IMG/VR virus record: IMGVR_UViG_3300028114_000011
Location: 1-64,000 of that record
DNA length: 64,000 bases
Strand: one strand, 5' to 3'
Source of the DNA: an uncultured virus (IMG/VR IMGVR_UViG_3300028114_000011)
Lineage: Duplodnaviria > Heunggongvirae > Uroviricota > Caudoviricetes
The position numbers and the translations under genes are program-made. Within the stretch, counting starts at the first letter, position 1; every line of letters starts with the position of its first letter. A model generated the notes under the pieces. The model did no database searches, was not told the DNA's origin, and saw only the letters and a list, made by a program, of their open reading frames with translations. This document shows positions 1-32,678 of this stretch, one piece after another.

Positions 1-240
1 TTTACCACCAAAACCAAAATTTACTTTAACAACCTTTCCTTTGTCGTTTTTGACATACACTTTGAACTTCTTGATGTCTCCTTGCATGATTTTACCAAGT
101 TGAACTTTTCTTCCTTGGTATTCTGCTTCTTGAAGTAAATTAACGTCTTCTACTGAACCATAAATGTCTTCGTAGATGAAGTCATTAGTATTAATGAATT
201 CCTCCATTAAAACCTTCTTTATGATTGTTTCTATATTCAT
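1..240 (-). CDS. Conserved phage protein (DUF6321-like), 3' end outside the window
   Basis: Manual translation from ATG at 240: MNIETIIKKVLMEE...EAEYQGRKVQLGKIMQGDIKKFKVYVKNDKGKVVKVNFGFGGK; TATTTAT motif 4 nt upstream. Confidence 0.7.
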   Translation of the reverse strand, partial: MNIETIIKKVLMEEFINTNDFIYEDIYGSVEDVNLLQEAEYQGRKVQLGKIMQGDIKKFKVYVKNDKGKVVKVNFGFGGK

Positions 241-261
241 ACCTATAAATATCATATAAAC

Positions 262-290
262 AAAAAAAGGTGAAGTCTCCTTCACCTTAA
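262..290 (-). terminator. Intrinsic terminator
   Basis: Minus strand AAGGTGAAG-GAGA-CTTCACCTT followed by a T run. Confidence 0.75.
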
Positions 291-353
291 TTTTGGGTCA
301 ACACGGTTCGTGTCAACATCTCTCCACCACTTTGTTTTTATAGAACAAAGAAA

Positions 354-620
354 CTATCCCTCTAACTTGGATTTAGCAACAACAACTTCCGCCATTGATA
401 CTTCTTTATTTGTTCCCAAAATTAACGATTCTTTTAACATTGCAAACGGTATATGGATTAAAAAATCCTTGCCGTTGAAGGTCGTAAAATCTTCTTTCAA
501 GGATAGGGACGCATGAACCATATTCAAAAATATTTTGAACTGGATTTCATCCACAAAAGTTTCATTTAGAATTTCACCGTGTTTTGGGTGAACAAGAAGT
601 ACGTTTTTTACTGTTGCCAT
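354..620 (-). CDS. Hypothetical protein (probable start MATVKN at 620 rather than 671)
   Basis: ORF 354..671; TACATTTG promoter box at 628-635 just upstream of the internal ATG. Confidence 0.65.
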   Translation of the reverse strand: MATVKNVLLVHPKHGEILNETFVDEIQFKIFLNMVHASLSLKEDFTTFNGKDFLIHIPFAMLKESLILGTNKEVSMAEVVVAKSKLEG

Positions 621-663
621 ATGTTTACAAATGTAATTGTTTTTTTTTAATAAACCAAATTTT

Positions 664-1092
664 TTATTCAATTATCCATTTAATTTTTGATACAGTAAGG
701 TCTTCATAAACATTCATATATTTCAATTCATTATGAATGTAAGTGGTAATTGCATCCCTATATCTTCGGTTCATTCTTTTGACTCCATTAATAAAATCTT
801 GTCTGATATACCAACCGGAATGTTCGTATTCTTCCATATACTGGCTATTTTTGACATCAATTTCAACATCAACTTCATAAACAAATTCTCTTTGATGCCA
901 AGCGTAACCATTTTGGTATTTTCTAATTGAAGTAATTTTTATGGTTGAATTTATTAAAACTCCCCATGAATCAATATACCTATAAGGATGAGGATAACCA
1001 TTAGTTTTTATTTCTAAGGTTTTAACATATTTTTTTATAAACTTGATGTCTTTATCTTTAAGTGCGTATCCTGTTTTATATTTGTTTTCCAT
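664..1092 (-). CDS. Hypothetical protein
   Basis: 142-aa ORF; TATATTTG box at 1097-1104. Confidence 0.7.
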   Translation of the reverse strand: MENKYKTGYALKDKDIKFIKKYVKTLEIKTNGYPHPYRYIDSWGVLINSTIKITSIRKYQNGYAWHQREFVYEVDVEIDVKNSQYMEEYEHSGWYIRQDFINGVKRMNRRYRDAITTYIHNELKYMNVYEDLTVSKIKWIIE

Positions 1093-1123
1093 ACAACAAA
1101 TATACTAAAAAAAATTAATTGCA

Positions 1124-1154
1124 CAAAAAAATGGATAAGAAAAAACTTATCCAT
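1124..1154 (-). terminator. Intrinsic terminator downstream of the large ncRNA
   Basis: Inverted repeat ATGGATAAG (1131-1139) / CTTATCCAT (1146-1154) followed on the minus strand by a T run. Confidence 0.75.
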
Positions 1155-1184
1155 CAAATTTTTTACCGGTGGCTCCATTAAAAA

Positions 1185-2005
1185 AAACGTTGAGATTACA
1201 CGTTTGTTGTGAGAACCTTTAGAGTCATTATTGTTTCTACTCCTATCCACTTTCTTTTGGAAAGTATTTCTCAGTGACGGTCTTTTAGGTTTACCACTCC
1301 TTGAGGTTTGAATTACTCTCATCTTACTTGACTCTTTTTGAGGATGCCTCCCCAATTCGTCCTTGCGGGACTAAAGGTTTTTTGGATAATTACACGTCAG
1401 CTTGGGGCCTTCGTGTGCAATGAACGGCTCATTACTATGTAGTCACCTTTCATCCAAACCTGACGGACACTTTTCCTTAATTTATTTTTAATTGTTATTA
1501 ATCATAATAATAAGTTTTTGTGTTGTGGATTGTCGAAGTAGTGGTCCGCCACCCGAGATGACCTATCTTTTGAACAAGTCAATACTCAACTACTCCGTGA
1601 GATATCCCTACCTCCATATTTCAAGACTACTTCGTGATAGACCTCTTGGTAGAGGTTAATCAAGGTTAATAACGACACCACTCGTACTTTAACATACCTT
1701 TCGGTTTTAAGTATCCTTTAATATTGGAAAACGCAATAATGAAATTGGATAACTTCATGTTTTGCAAATATTCCTACGGGTTATTCCTATTGGTGTTCCC
1801 ACCTCAAACAGACGACCCACATCGCCTAATCACCTAACCACTTTCCCTACAGCGTTGCCCTCGGTACTAAAGGTTAAACGGTATCCCGCTTGTGTACTCG
1901 ACCTCGATTGTCCAAAGACAACCAAGACGCAAACCATCTAACACAAATGATTCACTTTATCCCACTTTCGTGGTTTATTTTAATGGACCATACACGGCCC
2001 ATTGA
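1185..2005 (-). ncRNA. Large structured ncRNA, probably GOLLD family
   Basis: ~820 nt with no credible ORF and higher GC than flanks; GAAA tetraloop hairpins (1962-1973, 1696-1705); long-range helices 1534-1542/1626-1634 and 1214-1222/1371-1379; AU-rich linker ~1475-1520 splitting two domains; size, phage context and remembered sequence features fit GOLLD. Confidence 0.7.
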
Positions 2006-2085
2006 ACTCTTCGTTTCATAAACTTTAAAGAAAAGGGGGTTAATCTTTTATTTCAAATTTTATATGAACAATTTGTTCGTTAGAA

Positions 2086-2097
2086 TTTCAAAGAACG
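2086..2097 (-). promoter_or_regulatory. boxA-like antitermination element
   Basis: Minus strand CGTTCTTTGAAA, resembling rRNA-leader boxA, located between the promoter and the large ncRNA. Confidence 0.45.
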
Positions 2098-2290
2098 AAT
2101 TAATGATATAACTATTGCGGTAATATGTTACACTTACACTTTAAATGTGAAGGACTTCTGCTTTGTTTCATACAGTTAAATGTTTGTCCCGTAGTCACTT
2201 TCCTCACATACAACAGTAGCCCTACGGACCTAGACTGTTTTAATCATCAATATTTCAATTTTTTATTTCGGACGTTTCCGATTTGTTTTA

Positions 2291-2321
2291 CAAATTTAAG
2301 ACATTTATTTCAATCTGTCAA
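2291..2321 (-). promoter_or_regulatory. Promoter of the ncRNA unit (TTGACA-N17-TAAATTTG)
   Basis: TAnnTTTG Bacteroidota-type -7 box at 2291-2298 and TTGACA at 2316-2321. Confidence 0.7.
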
Positions 2322-2338
2322 GTAATTTGTGAACTTTT

Positions 2339-2482
2339 TTAAACATTTTCTACAAAAACTTTTATAGTTCCATAGAATTTAGCTCTTACACTTGCAAAGA
2401 CTTCATTTGAAGTATAAAGTTTTCTTCCTTTATCATCAAAGTAAAAAAAAATCTCTGTAGTGATGATTAAATCTTCACTCAT
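2339..2482 (-). CDS. Small hypothetical protein (47 aa; below ORF-track cutoff)
   Basis: MSEDLIITTEIFFYFDDKGRKLYTSNEVFASVRAKFYGTIKVFVENV, downstream of the promoter at 2531-2561. Confidence 0.6.
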   Translation of the reverse strand: MSEDLIITTEIFFYFDDKGRKLYTSNEVFASVRAKFYGTIKVFVENV

Positions 2483-2530
2483 AATTTTAATTTTTCAAAT
2501 TATACAAAGGGTCGTTTCCCAATTGTTTTA

Positions 2531-2561
2531 CAAATTTAAAACTAATATTCTGATTTGTCAA
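2531..2561 (-). promoter_or_regulatory. Second copy of the TTGACA-N17-TAAATTTG promoter
   Basis: Same boxes and spacing as 2291-2321, offset by 240 nt. Confidence 0.7.
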
Positions 2562-2666
2562 ACAAAACAATAAAAATTTTTTGATTTTTTTGTAATAAAT
2601 ATAAATATATTATACTTCATCAAAAGTTTTATTGTTTTTAAATTTTTTTTCAAATATTTATATAAT

Positions 2667-3023
2667 GTGAAAATTTTAGTTAACGATAACGTTTTTAATT
2701 GTAAAGTTGCGGCAAACTCCGAGTCCATTCAAAAAGGTATGATGGGTAAAAAGTTTGATAGTAATTTTGATGGTATGTTGTTTATGATGCCAGATAAAAA
2801 AAATCAAACGTTTTGGATGTACGATTGTTTAATTCCTTTAGATATTATTATGATTGATGGAAATGTAATAACAAAAATTAATCATAACTGCCCTCCTTGT
2901 AATGACCAAAAAAATTGTGAAATGTTTGAGGGATTTGGAAATATTGTTTTAGAATTGGATGGGGGTATTTGTAAAGAATTGGGAATAAAAGAAGGTGATA
3001 GAATTAAAACTTCCTTATTTTAA
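2667..3023 (+). CDS. DUF192 family protein
   Basis: Motifs QKGMM, GMLF, FWMYDCLIPLDII, VLELDGG typical of DUF192. Confidence 0.85.
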   Translation: MKILVNDNVFNCKVAANSESIQKGMMGKKFDSNFDGMLFMMPDKKNQTFWMYDCLIPLDIIMIDGNVITKINHNCPPCNDQKNCEMFEGFGNIVLELDGGICKELGIKEGDRIKTSLF

Positions 3024-3154
3024 TTTTTATCAATTTTTCTTTGTAGAATATCAATAAATTTATTTCTCATATCAATTACTAAATCATTTATATTTCTAAT
3101 ACCAGATTCTGAAATAAGAAAATTTAGTTGATTTTCTGTGATGATGATTTTCAT
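3020..3154 (-). CDS. 44-aa ORF with MKIIITENQL-type leader; possible deletion remnant
   Basis: MKIIITENQLNFLISESGIRNINDLVIDMRNKFIDILQRKIDKN. Confidence 0.45.
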   Translation of the reverse strand: MKIIITENQLNFLISESGIRNINDLVIDMRNKFIDILQRKIDKN

Positions 3155-3235
3155 ATTAATGAATACCTTGTAAAAATAGAACTTAGTCTTTGTTTTATGT
3201 TATGTAATATATTTATCTAATAAATTGAATAATTT

Positions 3236-3841
3236 ATGAAACTTTTACTCGAAAAAGAATTGTATCTCATAAAAAAAATGATGGGTATAATATTAGAAGA
3301 AGAAGACCCAAAAACAGAAGAAGAGTGCGATAAAAAAAGAGATACCGGTACTAATTGTTATTGGGCTTACAAAAAAAATAAATGTATAACTTGCCCTGAA
3401 GGTCAACGTTTGAGTTATCCATCGGAAGAATGTAGTTCATGTGACCCTGATGATGAGGTATTTGTACCAGGATTTGGTTGTGAAAAAATTTGTGATGATG
3501 ACGAATATTTTAATAGGGACAGTGGTGAATGTGAAAAAATACCACCAGGTAAATTTTATGATGGTAACCAATTACGTGATATTGACGAAGATATTTTAAA
3601 ATTTTGGGATTTAGAAAATGAAAAAAGAGAAAAGGAAGGTAAATCAATATTAAATCCTTACGAAAAACCTGAAAGCGAAGAAGACAGGGAGGATTGGGAT
3701 GAGATTTTTAAAATGGCAAACTTTTTTGTGAATGAAGACAGGATTAACGGTAAAGAAGAGAAAATATCAATCAGAAAATGGAACAAACAGACGGAGAACT
3801 GTTTGAACAATAACACTCGCCCACCAGAGTTTCCATTATAG
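3236..3841 (+). CDS. Cys-rich acidic hypothetical protein
   Basis: 201 aa with ten Cys in short repeats (CITCPEG, CSSCDPD, CEKICDD); TATTTAT upstream. Confidence 0.7.
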   Translation: MKLLLEKELYLIKKMMGIILEEEDPKTEEECDKKRDTGTNCYWAYKKNKCITCPEGQRLSYPSEECSSCDPDDEVFVPGFGCEKICDDDEYFNRDSGECEKIPPGKFYDGNQLRDIDEDILKFWDLENEKREKEGKSILNPYEKPESEEDREDWDEIFKMANFFVNEDRINGKEEKISIRKWNKQTENCLNNNTRPPEFPL

Positions 3842-4684
3842 CTTTTCGTTTTTAATTTCTTTTATTGTTTTAAAATATTCAACTCTTGTTTTTGCAACTT
3901 CACAATAGTTTGGTGATAGTTCTATTCCTAACCATCTTCTACCTAAAACTTCAGCCGCCACCAAACTGGTACCACTTCCTGCGAAGGGGTCTAATACTAT
4001 ATCGTTTTTGTAGGATAATATCTTAATCGCCTTAGTTGGTATGTCCATCGAGAACGTAGCCTTGGTGAGTGACTTAGTATCTGCAAAGTAATTCCACTGA
4101 CCAAACACAAGTTCCATAAACTCTTTCTTATCTTGTTCTTCATACACCACTTTTTTCTTAAAGGTTCCGTCTTCTTGTTCAATATCAGTTGGGACTCCTG
4201 TCCATTGCGGTTGTCCTTTGGTCAATTTTTTTGGACTATTTTTATAAGCTAGTATCAAACACTCTTTCGGGTTATATATGTATGGTTGACTACAATTCAT
4301 CCATGAACCCCAAGCGGTAGTCTTACTTCTATGTGGAGAATCTTCAACTAAATCCACAAGACCGAACCATTTAAATCCTATAGATTTCATTACGTTCCAT
4401 ATTTCAGAAACTATAAAAACTCGGCCACCTCGGTCTTTCAAATTAATCTCGAATGGGATATTTACGCAAATTCTACCATCATCTTTTAAAACTCTAAAAG
4501 CCTGTTCTAACCATTTCTTGGAAAATTCAAGGTATTCTTCCAAATTTGTATTATCATCGTAAACATCATAATTAATGTTAACTGAATATGGCGGGCTGGT
4601 TAAAACTAAATCTATTGAATTTTCAGGAAGTATTTTCATTACTTCAACACAATCCCCATTTATTATTTTTCCTGTTTCTATCAT
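3836..4684 (-). CDS. DNA methyltransferase (N4-C/N6-A family, beta class)
   Basis: LTSPPY catalytic motif N-terminal to the VLDPFAGSGT SAM-binding motif. Confidence 0.92.
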   Translation of the reverse strand: MIETGKIINGDCVEVMKILPENSIDLVLTSPPYSVNINYDVYDDNTNLEEYLEFSKKWLEQAFRVLKDDGRICVNIPFEINLKDRGGRVFIVSEIWNVMKSIGFKWFGLVDLVEDSPHRSKTTAWGSWMNCSQPYIYNPKECLILAYKNSPKKLTKGQPQWTGVPTDIEQEDGTFKKKVVYEEQDKKEFMELVFGQWNYFADTKSLTKATFSMDIPTKAIKILSYKNDIVLDPFAGSGTSLVAAEVLGRRWLGIELSPNYCEVAKTRVEYFKTIKEIKNEKL

Positions 4685-15005: not shown

Positions 15006-15161
15006 ATGAAAAAAGAAAAAGCAACAGAAGTAGGATGTAGTGCATGTAAAAAAGGCATGTCAGGTTCACAAAAATGGATTACAGTCTTGGCGGTTTATAT
15101 GTTAATTGCCGCAGTTTACGGAACAGTTGAAATGGTTAAAAATATTATATCTTTATTTTAA
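15006..15161 (+). CDS. Small CxxC membrane peptide (51 aa)
   Basis: MKKEKATEVGCSACKKGMSGSQKWITVLAVYMLIAAVYGTVEMVKNIISLF. Confidence 0.55.
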   Translation: MKKEKATEVGCSACKKGMSGSQKWITVLAVYMLIAAVYGTVEMVKNIISLF

Positions 15162-16124
15162 GATATTTTCTATTTGTTCTTTTTGTTCGTTTGTAAGTGT
15201 TATGGTATTTGTAATACTTAACTTTACGTACAGATTACCAATCCCATTATTGAGTTTATAACCCTTACCGACCAATTTAAGAGGTTTATCTGTGTCAAAA
15301 TTATCAGGTAGATTTATTTTAATATTACCGTCGGGATGTGGTATTTCTATTTCACCATTTAATAACAAGTCTTTAAAATTCAACTTTAAATAATAAACCA
15401 AGTCTGCGTTAGATTTTTCAAAATTATTATGTTTAATACAAACAACCTTTAAAATTAAATCACCTTTACCTAATCCAGGTATTTCGTCACCTATCCCCCT
15501 CATTCTCATAAAATCACCATTATCAACATTTTTGGGAATTTGGACATTAAATTTTGTGTGGTTAGATGTCACTCCGTTTCCATAACAAAACCCACAAGCA
15601 TCTATTAAGTATTCACCAACACCTTTACAATCCGTACAAGTTGCTTGTATTTGTGTTTTGAAAAATCCTGTACCTACAGTTTGGACGGTAAACCCTCTAC
15701 CTGCACATCTACTACAGACTTTTTTAGTACCACCAGTTCCATTACAACTATTACAAGATTTATTAACATCAACTTCTATTGTTTTTTCAACACCTTTATA
15801 AGATTCTTCTGCACTAATAACAATTTCAATAACTTTATCTGCCGGTTTTGGTTTCCTTTTGGATTGTCCCATCATTTCCTCAAAAATAGACCCAAATCCA
15901 AAATCGCCACCACCACCAAATGGGTTCCTCCTTTTCATATCGTAGTCACCTCTTTTTTTGTCATCCCCTAAAGTGTCATACGCTTCAGAAATCTCTTTAA
16001 ACTTTTCTTCACCTTCAGGGTTTACATCCGGATGGTATTGCTTACTTAATTTTTTATATGTTTTTTTTATATCTTCTTGTGTTGCGGTTTCAGAAACACC
16101 TAATATTTCATAATAGTTTTTCAT
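15153..16124 (-). CDS. dnaJ: DnaJ co-chaperone
   Basis: J-domain with HPD, G/F-rich linker, four CxxCxGxG repeats and C-terminal domain. Confidence 0.93.
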   Translation of the reverse strand: MKNYYEILGVSETATQEDIKKTYKKLSKQYHPDVNPEGEEKFKEISEAYDTLGDDKKRGDYDMKRRNPFGGGGDFGFGSIFEEMMGQSKRKPKPADKVIEIVISAEESYKGVEKTIEVDVNKSCNSCNGTGGTKKVCSRCAGRGFTVQTVGTGFFKTQIQATCTDCKGVGEYLIDACGFCYGNGVTSNHTKFNVQIPKNVDNGDFMRMRGIGDEIPGLGKGDLILKVVCIKHNNFEKSNADLVYYLKLNFKDLLLNGEIEIPHPDGNIKINLPDNFDTDKPLKLVGKGYKLNNGIGNLYVKLSITNTITLTNEQKEQIENILK

Positions 16125-31728: not shown

Positions 31729-31963
31729 TTAATTGTGTTTTATCTCCGCAGTATATTTCGTATGGTGGTTTGAATGGGTCATCATTTTTTGGAAAAGGGT
31801 TAATTGGTATTGGTACGCGGTATGGTTCAGTTATTCCAATCTTTGGTTCATCTTTTACTTCCCCCATTTTTTCCACAATAGGTGTGATATCTATGTGTTT
31901 GTTTTCAAGTTTACCGGTTAAATACCCTTCTAACCAAATATAAAATTCTTTATAACTTAACAT
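31721..31963 (-). CDS. Hypothetical protein
   Basis: 80-aa ORF. Confidence 0.65.
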   Translation of the reverse strand: MLSYKEFYIWLEGYLTGKLENKHIDITPIVEKMGEVKDEPKIGITEPYRVPIPINPFPKNDDPFKPPYEIYCGDKTQLND

Positions 31964-32106
31964 AATTCTCTACAATAAAGGTTTGCCAATACAATTCTTG
32001 CGAACTTAAATTCTTTTGCTCTGTTTAATTTTAATCCATAAGCAAGTGCCACAGTTTTAAGGTGAGGATATGCTTGTGATACTGTCATTTTTCCTATTTC
32101 TATCAT
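31957..32106 (-). CDS. Small hypothetical protein (49 aa)
   Basis: MIEIGKMTVSQAYPHLKTVALAYGLKLNRAKEFKFARIVLANLYCRELC, overlapping both neighbours. Confidence 0.55.
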   Translation of the reverse strand: MIEIGKMTVSQAYPHLKTVALAYGLKLNRAKEFKFARIVLANLYCRELC

Positions 32107-32321
32107 TTTTCAAATAATTGTAAGTCTTTGTTAACGTGACCACAATCATTACACATATATGTTGGAAATGGTACAATCGTATCTTCGTGACTACCTGTTA
32201 GTAATTTTGAAACTTTTTTTAATAAAGTAATTTCTTTAAAGTATGTTGATTCACACTTTTCACACTTGACGGTTTCTTGCTGTCGTAAGTCTATTTTGGG
32301 TCTAATAATTTCTTCACTCAT
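32103..32321 (-). CDS. Zinc-ribbon protein
   Basis: CEKC...CNDC. Confidence 0.7.
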   Translation of the reverse strand: MSEEIIRPKIDLRQQETVKCEKCESTYFKEITLLKKVSKLLTGSHEDTIVPFPTYMCNDCGHVNKDLQLFEK

Positions 32322-32324
32322 AAT

Positions 32325-32573
32325 TTAATAATTTACAATTTCTTCTTCCTCGTTGGAGTATTTTTGTTTTATCATTTCAGTATTGAATGTAAATTCATCC
32401 ACTAAATTAGACTCAGAACCACCTTCAATGGTTTCTTCATACATTATTTGATTGAAATGTTCAAGAATTTCTTCTTCACTTTTTCCTTGTAAGTTTGGAT
32501 AATCCTCCAAATTAATTTCAATCGGCCCATAGGATTCAAAAACCGAATAAGTTTTGGTCATATAAATTTTCAT
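32325..32573 (-). CDS. Hypothetical protein
   Basis: 82-aa ORF. Confidence 0.6.
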   Translation of the reverse strand: MKIYMTKTYSVFESYGPIEINLEDYPNLQGKSEEEILEHFNQIMYEETIEGGSESNLVDEFTFNTEMIKQKYSNEEEEIVNY

Positions 32574-32678
32574 TTGATTATATAATTAACGTTTATTTTA
32601 AATTTTATTAAATGGTCCCAACTTGTTGTTGTGTACCATAGTGGTGTAATATTTTTTTCCATACTAAAAGATAATTTA

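What the first reader, a model, noticed from the sequence alone, without database searches (positions are those of the whole stretch)
1185..2005. ~820-nt highly structured phage ncRNA (GOLLD-like)
Seen: the largest non-coding gap in the window is GC-richer than its flanks and full of base-pairing. It has a 5' hairpin (1982-2003), GAAA tetraloop hairpins (1962-1973, 1696-1705), hairpins at 1641-1656 and 1359-1371, and perfect 9-bp long-range helices (1534-1542/1626-1634; 1214-1222/1371-1379). An AU-rich linker (~1475-1520) splits it into two domains, and a terminator follows at 1124-1154. Established: GOLLD RNAs are ~800-nt two-domain RNAs of phages and aquatic metagenomes with unknown function, often found near tRNAs. 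Inference: this is a GOLLD member or a new relative, here with no tRNA visible in the window.
Basis: partly seen in the sequence, partly recalled or inferred. Interest (0 to 1): 0.8.

Follow-up and report, generated by a model that had tools for sequence, protein, structure and literature searches.

The report
Standard GOLLD RNA, rRNA-style leader
The gene-free kilobase encodes an ordinary member of GOLLD, a known giant phage RNA that builds RNA-only cages, but it is driven by a ribosomal-RNA-style leader that also carries a small, uncatalogued folded RNA.

Summary
Window 2003..1187 (minus strand, 817 nt) is a full-length GOLLD RNA. The 3' domain (1597..1187) matches Rfam RF02032 at 313.3 bits (cut-off 150, model 1-416). 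The 5' domain (2003..1598), which Rfam does not model, is conserved in 40 non-identical viral-contig relatives. The consensus fold is strongly supported: 97.9% of cells paired against 86.5% in shuffles, and 117 of 198 pairs with compensatory changes. Its two "perfect 9-bp long-range helices" are not. The overlapping ORF 1035..1355 is not conserved.

Two things go beyond the finding. First, 39 of 40 relatives and the window carry GTTCTTTGA shortly upstream of GOLLD. The same 9-mer sits in the 16S leaders and 16S-23S spacers of Bacteroidota genomes, so it reads as a boxA, which suggests rRNA-type antitermination. Second, the window has an extra 118-nt double-pseudoknot RNA (2228..2111) between promoter and boxA. 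It matches no Rfam family. It recurs ahead of GOLLD, tmRNA or tRNA genes in 23 of 31 metagenome loci.

Earlier notes of this scan already hold many GOLLD findings on other DNA. Verdict: new member of a known kind.

The parts
2291..2321 (-). Promoter-like site TTGACA-N17-TAAATTTG; its last 8 bases fit the TAnnTTTG -7 box
   Evidence: 2 matches in 64 kb against 0.05 expected. The other copy is at 2531-2561. In relatives the TAnnTTTG box lies about 36 or about 62 nt upstream of the boxA-like motif. That TAnnTTTG is the Bacteroidota -7 consensus is recalled, not tested.
2268..2281 (-). 5' stem-loop CGGAAACGUCCG just after the promoter, in the position of boxB in an rrn leader
   Evidence: One search finds the palindrome. 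The sequences printed show the same hairpin between the -7 box and the boxA-like motif in most relatives, with stem variants CGGA/UCCG, CAGGA/UCCUG and UUGG/CCAA. This was seen by eye and not counted formally.
2111..2236 (-). Leader element: a 118-nt four-helix double pseudoknot (2228..2111) preceded by conserved AGUCUAGG. It is absent from the closest GOLLD relative, L030.
   Evidence: 76% identity to 29 Flavobacterium psychrophilum phage records. 31 homologous metagenome loci. 28 pairs, 96.4% paired against 83.2% shuffled; 16 pairs with compensatory change against 8.9 (0/500). No Rfam match (best E 1.8-7). Contigs of 153 and 180 nt in 2 of 4 RNA libraries cover 2108/2123-2240.
2088..2096 (-). 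boxA-like motif GUUCUUUGA
   Evidence: It occurs once in the 64-kb window. It lies at -150..-1 of GOLLD in 39 of 40 relatives. The same 9-mer is in the 16S leader of 12 of 22 and the 16S-23S spacer of 17 of 22 Bacteroidota rRNA loci.
1598..2003 (-). GOLLD 5' domain (406 nt), 20 helix segments including a hairpin-loop pseudoknot and an invariant GAAA loop at 1969-1966
   Evidence: Alignable at 71-88% identity in 47 IMG/VR loci plus LR745206.1. Helices 1-20 mostly have compensatory changes.
1187..1597 (-). GOLLD 3' domain, including the AU-rich variable linker (about 1533-1469)
   Evidence: Rfam RF02032, 313.3 bits, model 1-416. Helices 21-37. Two further covarying helices: 1550-1544 with 1468-1462, and 1447-1442 with 1278-1273.
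1166..1177 (-). Conserved 3' tail motif UGGAGCCACCGG of unknown role
   Evidence: Visible in about 17 rows of the alignment, as TGGAGC(C/G/T..)ACCGG between the end of GOLLD and the terminator. No pairing partner was found.
1124..1155 (-). Intrinsic-terminator-like hairpin (10 pairs) with a T run
   Evidence: Most relatives have an equivalent hairpin plus T run. Six have a tRNA-Met there instead.

Best explanation
Window 2003..1187 (minus strand) is the gene for a standard two-domain GOLLD RNA of an uncultured lake-water phage, probably one that infects Bacteroidota.

Shown: family membership, the covarying fold of both domains, and presence in RNA libraries.

Inferred from sequence motifs: the gene is its own transcription unit. 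A host-type promoter (2321-2291) is followed by a 5' hairpin, a leader with an rRNA-type boxA (2096-2088), the 817-nt RNA and an intrinsic terminator (1155-1124). I propose that boxA recruits the host NusB/S10 antitermination complex. That would carry RNA polymerase through this long, untranslated, hairpin-rich RNA without Rho-dependent or premature termination, as it does for ribosomal RNA.

Inferred by homology to solved relatives: the RNA then self-assembles without protein into a closed homo-oligomeric cage. The 5' domains form the caps, the 3' domains form the ring, and the AU-rich linker faces inwards.

What the cage does for the phage is unknown. My guess is that it holds or organises parts of the translation apparatus (odds about 0.3).
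For: - Rfam RF02032 at 313.3 bits against a cut-off of 150, over the full model.
- 48 loci (47 IMG/VR and LR745206.1) align over both domains.
- On 41 rows, 97.9% of cells are paired against 86.5% in shuffles. 117 of 198 pairs have compensatory changes against 74.4 (0/500). Slid partners pair at 38-45%.
- MFE z-score is -3.8.
- Viral context: the contig is classed as a virus record and has baseplate wedge, SbcC-like nuclease and methyltransferase hits.
- Contigs of 4 of 4 lake or freshwater metatranscriptome runs, from 4 studies, cover 1207-2010 at 90% identity or more.
- Leader: GTTCTTTGA is in 39 of 40 relatives at -150..-1. The same 9-mer is in 12 of 22 16S leaders and 17 of 22 spacers of Bacteroidota genomes.
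- Cage: env-38 GOLLD (833 nt; 5' region 1-420, 3' region 421-833) is a 14-mer, stable down to nanomolar concentrations (PMC12286853, passages read). Stoichiometry differs in the S. agalactiae GOLLD (PMC12990946, passages read).
Against: - No experiment exists on this RNA. Strand, ends and transcript level cannot be read from contigs, and RNA libraries can contain DNA (warnings).
- Oligomer formation and subunit number are extrapolated. I could not align this RNA to the solved env-38 sequence.
- boxA function rests on a 9-mer match and its position. One relative (L082) lacks the exact motif. The motif occurs 13 more times in 113,635 bases of the relatives' loci.
- I did not test whether the same 9-mer is also the boxA of other phyla, so it does not identify the host.
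- Host assignment is weak. The best named protein match is a Flavobacterium phage baseplate protein at 28% identity.
- No tRNA lies nearby, unlike many GOLLD genes. However, the contig is only about 25% complete and ends 1.2 kb beyond the gene.
Confidence: 0.9

Rival explanations
1. The conservation reflects a protein gene, the 106-codon frame 1035..1355 on the minus strand that overlaps the 3' end of the region, and not an RNA.
For: The frame is open in the window.
Against: The frame stays open for 80 codons or more in 1 of 41 aligned sequences (median 24 codons). Its TTG start is CTG or TCG in 20 of 41. It has no PHROG family at E <= 1e-5. It runs through the terminator hairpin. Substitutions follow base pairs.
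Confidence: 0.01
2. It is a new relative that shares only the 3' domain with GOLLD. Its 5' half would be an unrelated domain, so the cage architecture would not carry over.
For: Rfam models only the 3' domain. The 5' domain is described as variable across the family (PMC12286853 and PMC12990946, passages). I could not compare it with the solved env-38 sequence.
Against: The 5' domain (406 nt) is close in size to that of env-38 (420 nt). It aligns with the GOLLD of the 634-kb phage LR745206.1 over window 2069-1175 (62.6% identity). It keeps an invariant GAAA loop in all 41 rows. The paper names a conserved GAAA loop, L11a, in the cap.
Confidence: 0.06
3. The 118-nt pseudoknot element is not an independent module. 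It is a third, integral domain of this phage's GOLLD transcript, which would make a longer GOLLD variant of about 1.1 kb.
For: It lies between the only nearby promoter-like site and GOLLD, with no terminator-like site between them. 15 of 31 metagenome loci with the element have GOLLD downstream.
Against: - The closest GOLLD relative, L030 (87.7% identity), and all other IMG/VR relatives lack it.
- The same element precedes tmRNA or tRNA genes in 8 metagenome loci and in the FpV4 phages.
- In L236, L239, L222 and L238 a tRNA starts directly after it. In L225, L228 and L245 further promoter modules separate it from GOLLD.
- RNA-library contigs of 153 and 180 nt hold it alone.
Confidence: 0.12
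4. The GOLLD copy is a decaying relic that is no longer functional or expressed.
For: There is no adjacent tRNA, and the gene sits near a contig end.
Against: The score is far above the threshold with 0.98 mean posterior. Only 4 non-standard pairs are flagged in the Rfam alignment, and every helix is kept. Near-identical sequence is held by at least 14 DNA runs and partly by 6 RNA runs. RNA-library contigs cover it.
Confidence: 0.02

Closest known systems
GOLLD RNA (Rfam RF02032); solved example env-38, a 14-mer cage (Kretsch et al. 2025, PMC12286853, passages read)
   Same: Full-length match to the family model. About 0.8 kb. A 5' domain of about 400 nt and a 3' domain of about 410 nt. A variable linker after the first 3'-domain hairpin. 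Phage origin and aquatic source.
   Different: No tRNA beside or inside it. The env-38 gene lies downstream of a tRNA-Met, while here 6 of 40 relatives have tRNA-Met directly downstream instead. Cage formation is untested. The leader with hairpin, boxA-like motif and extra pseudoknot RNA is not described for GOLLD in the papers I searched.
Streptococcus agalactiae GOLLD (review PMC12990946, passages read)
   Same: Same family and the same conserved 3' domain.
   Different: That RNA is described as shorter, lacking P9, P11a-c and P21b, with a different and variable subunit number. The window's RNA is env-38-sized and keeps both adjacent hairpins after the big 3'-domain helix.
ROOL RNA (Weinberg et al. 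2017, PMC5737381, passages read)
   Same: A large ornate phage-associated RNA, often near tRNAs, that also forms cages.
   Different: No ROOL match at E <= 1 in 900-2500. Sequence and fold are unrelated.
Ribosomal RNA operon antitermination leader (boxB-boxA-boxC; NusB/S10, NusA, NusG): established knowledge, recalled
   Same: A promoter-proximal hairpin is followed by a boxA-like 9-mer identical to the one in Bacteroidota 16S leaders and spacers. It sits ahead of a long, untranslated, highly structured RNA.
   Different: It sits on a phage gene for a non-ribosomal RNA. Binding of Nus factors is untested. In the window the hairpin and boxA are separated by about 170 nt that hold the pseudoknot element.
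Cis-acting leader RNAs such as the put RNA of phage HK022, and 5' leaders removed from tRNA precursors by RNase P (recalled; working analogies for the 118-nt element only)
   Same: A compact folded RNA at the start of a phage transcription unit. In some loci it directly abuts a tRNA 5' end.
   Different: There is no sequence or structural match to any Rfam family. It has four helices with two pseudoknots, unlike put's two stem-loops. Its function is untested.

Membership tests
GOLLD RNA (RF02032) | Match to the family covariance model above the curated gathering score, over the whole model | tested here: met
   313.3 bits against 150, E 8.2e-89, model 1-416 of 416, not truncated.
GOLLD RNA (RF02032) | About 800 nt with a conserved 3' domain and a less conserved 5' domain | tested here: met
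   817 nt in total. The 3' domain is 1597..1187 (411 nt) and the 5' domain is 2003..1598 (406 nt). Homology among relatives starts at window 1999-2019 in most loci.
GOLLD RNA (RF02032) | Ornate secondary structure kept by compensatory changes | tested here: met
   198 pairs in 37 helices. 97.9% paired against 86.5% in shuffles. 117 pairs with changes on both sides against 74.4 (0/500).
GOLLD RNA (RF02032) | Variable, unstructured linker after the first hairpin of the 3' domain | tested here: met
   AU-rich stretch at about 1533-1469, aligned to the unpaired model positions of about 64-136. These columns are poorly alignable among relatives.
GOLLD RNA (RF02032) | Phage or prophage context | tested here: met
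   Virus record of 73,541 nt. Baseplate wedge, SbcC-like nuclease and DNA methyltransferase families. Baseplate protein similar to those of Flavobacterium and uncultured jumbo phages.
GOLLD RNA (RF02032) | Neighbouring or embedded tRNA genes (frequent in the family, not obligatory) | tested here: not met
   0 tRNAs in the window and 0 in the other 9.5 kb of the contig. 6 of 40 relatives have tRNA-Met directly 3' of GOLLD, 2 have ARAGORN tmRNA calls and 32 have neither. The contig is about 25% complete.
GOLLD RNA (RF02032) | RNA-only homo-oligomeric cage | not testable with these tools
   Known for env-38 and S. agalactiae GOLLD. No nucleic-acid structure tool was available here.
GOLLD RNA (RF02032) | Expressed as a stable RNA | tested here: inconclusive
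   Contigs of 4 of 4 RNA libraries cover 1207-2010. Contigs give neither strand, ends nor level, and RNA libraries can hold DNA.
rRNA-type boxA antitermination leader | boxA sequence of the host clade, on the sense strand, promoter-proximal and upstream of the structured RNA | tested here: met
   GTTCTTTGA at 2096-2088. It is in 39 of 40 relatives at -150..-1, about 36 or about 62 nt after a TAnnTTTG box. The same 9-mer is in 12 of 22 16S leaders and 17 of 22 16S-23S spacers of Bacteroidota genomes.
rRNA-type boxA antitermination leader | Binding of NusB/S10 and resistance to Rho-dependent termination | not testable with these tools
   This needs a binding assay or a reporter experiment.
Any Rfam family, for the 118-nt leader element | Match to a curated covariance model | tested here: not met
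   Scan of 2090-2300 at E <= 10 gave 3 chance-level rows (10.5-14.3 bits, E 1.8-7.1). None came near a gathering score.
ROOL RNA | Match to the family model | tested here: not met
   No family other than GOLLD reached E <= 1 in 900-2500.

The most novel reading that the evidence does not exclude
The 118-nt double-pseudoknot RNA at 2228..2111 is an undescribed family of phage small RNAs that heads stable-RNA operons (GOLLD, standard or permuted tmRNA, tRNA arrays). Together with the hairpin-boxA leader it forms a phage 'stable-RNA expression cassette'. This cassette would borrow the host's ribosomal-RNA antitermination machinery and RNase P processing to make large amounts of untranslated phage RNA. 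The small RNA would be released as a separate product with its own, still unknown, activity.
Probability: 0.45. Interest if true: 0.6.

Novelty: new member of a known kind. Interest (0 to 1): 0.33.

Why it matters
This GOLLD copy adds little to the family itself. The family has been known since 2009, cage structures have been solved, and this scan has met it on other DNA many times.

The useful part is the transcription unit around it. GOLLD's function is an open question, and how a phage produces an 0.8-kb untranslated RNA in bulk has not been addressed in the papers I could search. A conserved rRNA-type boxA leader gives a concrete, testable answer. It also suggests a genetic handle: mutating boxA should starve the phage of GOLLD.

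The co-occurring pseudoknot RNA links GOLLD, tmRNA and tRNA genes into one class of phage operon. That points towards a translation-related role and offers a second new RNA to characterise.

Tried and rejected
2. ORF 1035..1355 as a gene was rejected.
3. The genome-contig scan with the GOLLD core pattern gave 67 pattern matches. None of the 67 is homologous to the window's GOLLD by blastn, so they are chance matches. There is therefore no prophage copy and no host clue.
4. The IMG/VR scan for the leader element with a strict pattern gave only one contig, of FpV4 type. The looser metagenome pattern then found 33 loci, of which 2 (L219, L230) are not homologous.
5. The record behind L227 is a 172-kb contig whose element core is identical to the window's. 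It is not held for the genome search, so I could not look for tRNAs beyond the window's contig end.
6. Weinberg et al. 2009 (PMC4140389) is not held. What I say of it comes from later papers or from recall.
7. Metatranscriptome flanks: most bins outside 1207-2278 had no cover in X17, X18 and X20, and low figures in X15.
8. A back-joint reported for X20 (2240 to 2108 with 17 other letters between, table 5c) could mean a tandem or circular form of the leader element. It rests on one short contig at under 95% identity and was not pursued.
9. A helix between AACAGUC (about 2238-2232) and AACUGU (about 2176-2171) in the leader element was dropped, because the first strand varies while the second is invariant.
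10. Pairing of the 3' tail motif UGGAGCCACCGG with the GGUGGCGG bulge at about 1551-1544 fits the window but not L082 (by eye), so it was dropped.
11. The resemblance of GAGGAAAGU in the leader element to the RNase P RNA CR-I motif is recalled only. Rfam's RNase P models gave no match.
12. RNAalifold with RIBOSUM scoring gave a different, less plausible long-range fold. I kept the default-parameter fold, which reproduces.
13. PHROG scans of the two ORFs downstream of GOLLD (664-1092, 354-671) found nothing.

Full report
WHAT IS THERE

The window is the first 64 kb of a 73.5-kb linear virus contig that CheckV rates about 25% complete. Its ORFs hit phage families: baseplate wedge, SbcC-like nuclease, two DNA methyltransferases and a glycosyltransferase.

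No ORF of 90 aa or more lies between 1092 and 2667, apart from the frame 1035..1355. GC rises to 0.36-0.465 over 1201-2000, against 0.235-0.335 beside it.

Rfam at gathering thresholds finds exactly one RNA in the whole window. It is GOLLD (RF02032) at 1597..1187 on the minus strand, at 313.3 bits against a cut-off of 150, E 8e-89, covering model positions 1-416 of 416. Nothing else reaches E <= 1 in 900-2500.

The Rfam model covers only the family's conserved 3' domain. In the solved env-38 RNA the 5' region is residues 1-420 and the 3' region is 421-833 (PMC12286853, passages read).

THE 5' DOMAIN AND THE FOLD

Of these, 80 came with 1.5-kb flanks.

By blastn, 48 loci (47 IMG/VR and the 634-kb uncultured phage LR745206.1) align with the window over both domains, at 62.6-88% identity. 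Homology usually starts at window 1999-2019 and ends at 1100-1190. I dropped 7 exact duplicates and LR745206.1, then aligned the window with 40 relatives (A3).

RNAalifold predicts 196 pairs, of which 115 have changes on both sides. I removed two spurious pairs and added the 5' hairpin as a pseudoknot. On that structure the counts are:
- 198 pairs in 37 helices.
- 97.9% of cells paired, against 86.5% in 500 shuffles.
- 117 pairs with compensatory changes, against 74.4 (0 of 500 shuffles as high).
- 38-45% paired when partners are slid by 1-3 columns.

Helices 1-20 make up the 5' domain (2000..1599).

A scan for further complementary, covarying runs found two more helices in the 3' domain:
- 1550-1544 with 1468-1462, which closes the linker.
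- 1447-1442 with 1278-1273 (GGUGAC:GUCACU).

The single sequence folds at -229.6 kcal/mol, against -197.0 +/- 8.6 for shuffles.

Confirmed, most with covariation:
- the 5' hairpin;
- both GAAA hairpins (1973-1962 and 1705-1696);
- the hairpins at 1656-1641 and 1371-1359;
- the AU-rich linker;
- the terminator.

The loop of the 5' hairpin (1995-1990) also pairs with 1897-1892.

The two "perfect 9-bp long-range helices" are complementary in this one sequence only. Segment 1534-1542 really pairs with 1589-1597, at 99.7% of cells with CG/GC/AU covariation. With 1626-1634 it pairs at 83.5% with no compensation. The helix 1371-1379/1214-1222 fails at one pair in 26 of 41 rows.

The linker lies inside the 3' domain and not at the domain boundary.

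The frame 1035..1355 is open for 80 codons or more in 1 of 41 rows, with a median of 24 codons. It has no PHROG match.

EXPRESSION

The stretch is held almost whole by lake-water DNA runs, and in part (0.25-0.41 of sampled words) by six metatranscriptome runs. I laid four of these, from four studies, on window 1-4000 at 90% identity or more. Contigs of all four cover 1207-2010.

Contigs show neither strand, ends nor level, and RNA libraries can contain DNA. This shows presence in RNA libraries and not proof of a discrete transcript.

One contig of a relative joins 2578-2335, 97 other letters, and 2096-1952. That is a genome form without the window's 238-nt leader segment.

tRNA CONTEXT

There is no tRNA in the window or in the rest of the contig. 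This is normal for the clade. Among 40 relatives with 1.5-kb flanks, 6 have a tRNA-Met(CAT) directly 3' of GOLLD, 2 have ARAGORN tmRNA calls and 32 have neither.

More distant GOLLDs do sit among tRNAs. Examples are Acinetobacter phage Ab15 and LR745206.1, and a mycobacterial tRNA cluster in print (PMC6582537, passages read).

THE LEADER

In 39 of 40 relatives the 150 nt before GOLLD hold GTTCTTTGA on the sense strand (40 of 41 rows within 420 nt). It usually lies about 36 nt, in one subclade about 62 nt, after a TAnnTTTG box. A short hairpin (CGGAAACGUCCG, with covarying stem variants seen by eye) sits between them.

I took 16S rRNA loci from 22 genomes of the phylum of a Bacteroidetes MAG. 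The same 9-mer lies 78-210 nt upstream of the 16S gene in 12 of 22, and in the 16S-23S spacer in 17 of 22. Five of the loci had under 200 nt of upstream sequence. Occurrence in both leader and spacer is the hallmark position of boxA (established knowledge of rrn operons, recalled).

So the GOLLD gene has an rRNA-style leader: promoter, hairpin, boxA. I infer that host Nus factors make transcription of this long untranslated RNA termination-resistant. This step is inferred and not shown.

Full-text searches for GOLLD with boxA found 4 papers, all on plants. Searches for GOLLD RNA with antitermination found 4 papers, none linking the two.

In the window the motif occurs once in 64 kb, at 2096-2088. 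The promoter-like site TTGACA-N17-TAAATTTG occurs twice, at 2321-2291 and 2561-2531, against 0.05 expected.

THE EXTRA PSEUDOKNOT RNA

In the window the -7 box and the boxA-like motif lie about 200 nt apart, not about 36 or 62 nt as in relatives. The extra length includes a segment that matches 29 Flavobacterium psychrophilum phage records at 76% over 114 nt. In FpV4 this segment lies 417 nt upstream of a phage tmRNA, inside a 2.3-kb gene-free gap. The closest GOLLD relatives lack it.

A metagenome scan found 33 loci, of which 31 are homologous. What lies downstream on the same strand:

| Downstream RNA | Loci (of 31) |
|---|---|
| GOLLD | 15 |
| Permuted tmRNA | 3 |
| tRNA(s) | 5 |
| Nothing recognised | 7 |
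| Locus truncated | 1 |

In four loci a tRNA begins directly after the element. In three others, further promoter modules lie between it and GOLLD.

Twenty distinct sequences support four helices that form two pseudoknots. There are 28 pairs, 96.4% of cells paired against 83.2% shuffled, 16 pairs with compensatory changes against 8.9 (0/500), and 34-52% paired when slid. I derived this structure by eye from the same sequences, which inflates the comparison with the slid versions.

No Rfam family matches it. Contigs of 153 and 180 nt in two RNA libraries hold it alone.

I read it as an independent small RNA module of phage stable-RNA operons. Its function is unknown. Candidates are a processing leader released by RNase P, a cis-acting element that helps transcription, or a ligand-sensing element.

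HOST AND HABITAT

The DNA recurs in lake-water and some wastewater runs. A Bacteroidota (Flavobacteriia-like) host is plausible; my estimate is about 0.7. The grounds are:
- the TAnnTTTG box (consensus recalled);
- the boxA match;
- the element shared with Flavobacterium phages;
- a baseplate protein whose best named match is a Flavobacterium phage, at 28% identity.

No prophage copy was found in the species-genome collection: 0 of 67 pattern hits were homologous.

COMPARISON, NOVELTY AND EARLIER NOTES

This is a member of GOLLD by every defining feature I could test. Cage formation is inferred from env-38 and from the S. agalactiae RNA. The function of the family is unknown in print.

The scan's own notebook lists 1412 earlier notes that mention GOLLD. 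Some mention an "rRNA-style leader" (e1-5858465), and others a conserved leader domain ahead of GOLLD, tmRNA or tRNA (e1-5391251, which shares 12 of 30 words with the element; e1-3275000; e1-5669824). I used these as leads and tested the claims here on this window's own relatives.

The GOLLD call itself is ordinary. The leader architecture and the uncatalogued pseudoknot RNA are the parts worth following.

Noticed in passing
window 2111-2236 (minus): A 118-nt double-pseudoknot RNA with no Rfam match. It is shared with Flavobacterium psychrophilum phages (FpV4 family) and 31 metagenome loci, where it precedes GOLLD, tmRNA or tRNA genes.
   Followed up: yes
window 2088-2096 and 2268-2281 (minus): An rRNA-style leader ahead of GOLLD: a 5' hairpin and a boxA-like GUUCUUUGA. 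It is conserved in 39 of 40 relatives and identical to the 9-mer in Bacteroidota 16S leaders and spacers.
   Followed up: yes
window 2339-2561 (minus): A second copy of the same promoter type (2561-2531) with its own 5' hairpin GGGAAACGACCC drives a 47-codon ORF (2482-2339). The segment 2700-2284 is 89% identical in relative L030. Whether the small ORF is a real gene was not tested.
   Followed up: no
window 1166-1177 (minus): A motif UGGAGCCACCGG lies between the end of GOLLD and the terminator. It is kept in about 17 relatives, and no partner or role was found.
   Followed up: partly
window 1626-1634 and 1589-1597 (minus): CGAAGUAGU is a near-repeat of CGGAGUAGU, and both are complementary to 1534-1542. 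Only the second pairing covaries. The first could be a folding intermediate or chance.
   Followed up: partly
L229 and L247 (metagenome loci): A divergent GOLLD (162.9 bits) has a tRNA call inside its linker region and the leader element upstream.
   Followed up: no
L059 2024-2426 and L041 891-1287 (IMG/VR loci): ARAGORN calls tmRNA genes with unusual tag peptides downstream of GOLLD, on the opposite strand, in two relatives. They were not checked with Rfam.
   Followed up: no
window 2108-2240, run X20 (table 5c): One RNA-library contig appears to run from the end of the leader element back to its start with 17 other letters between them. This hints at a tandem or circular form in some relative.
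   Followed up: no
window 15153-16124 (minus): A 323-aa protein matches regions annotated as chaperone DnaJ in other phage records at about 35% identity.
   Followed up: no
window 31729-32678 (minus): The second-largest stretch without an ORF of 90 aa or more is filled by a tandem run of small minus-strand ORFs (80, 49, 72, 82 and 30 aa), so it is probably small genes and not RNA.
   Followed up: partly
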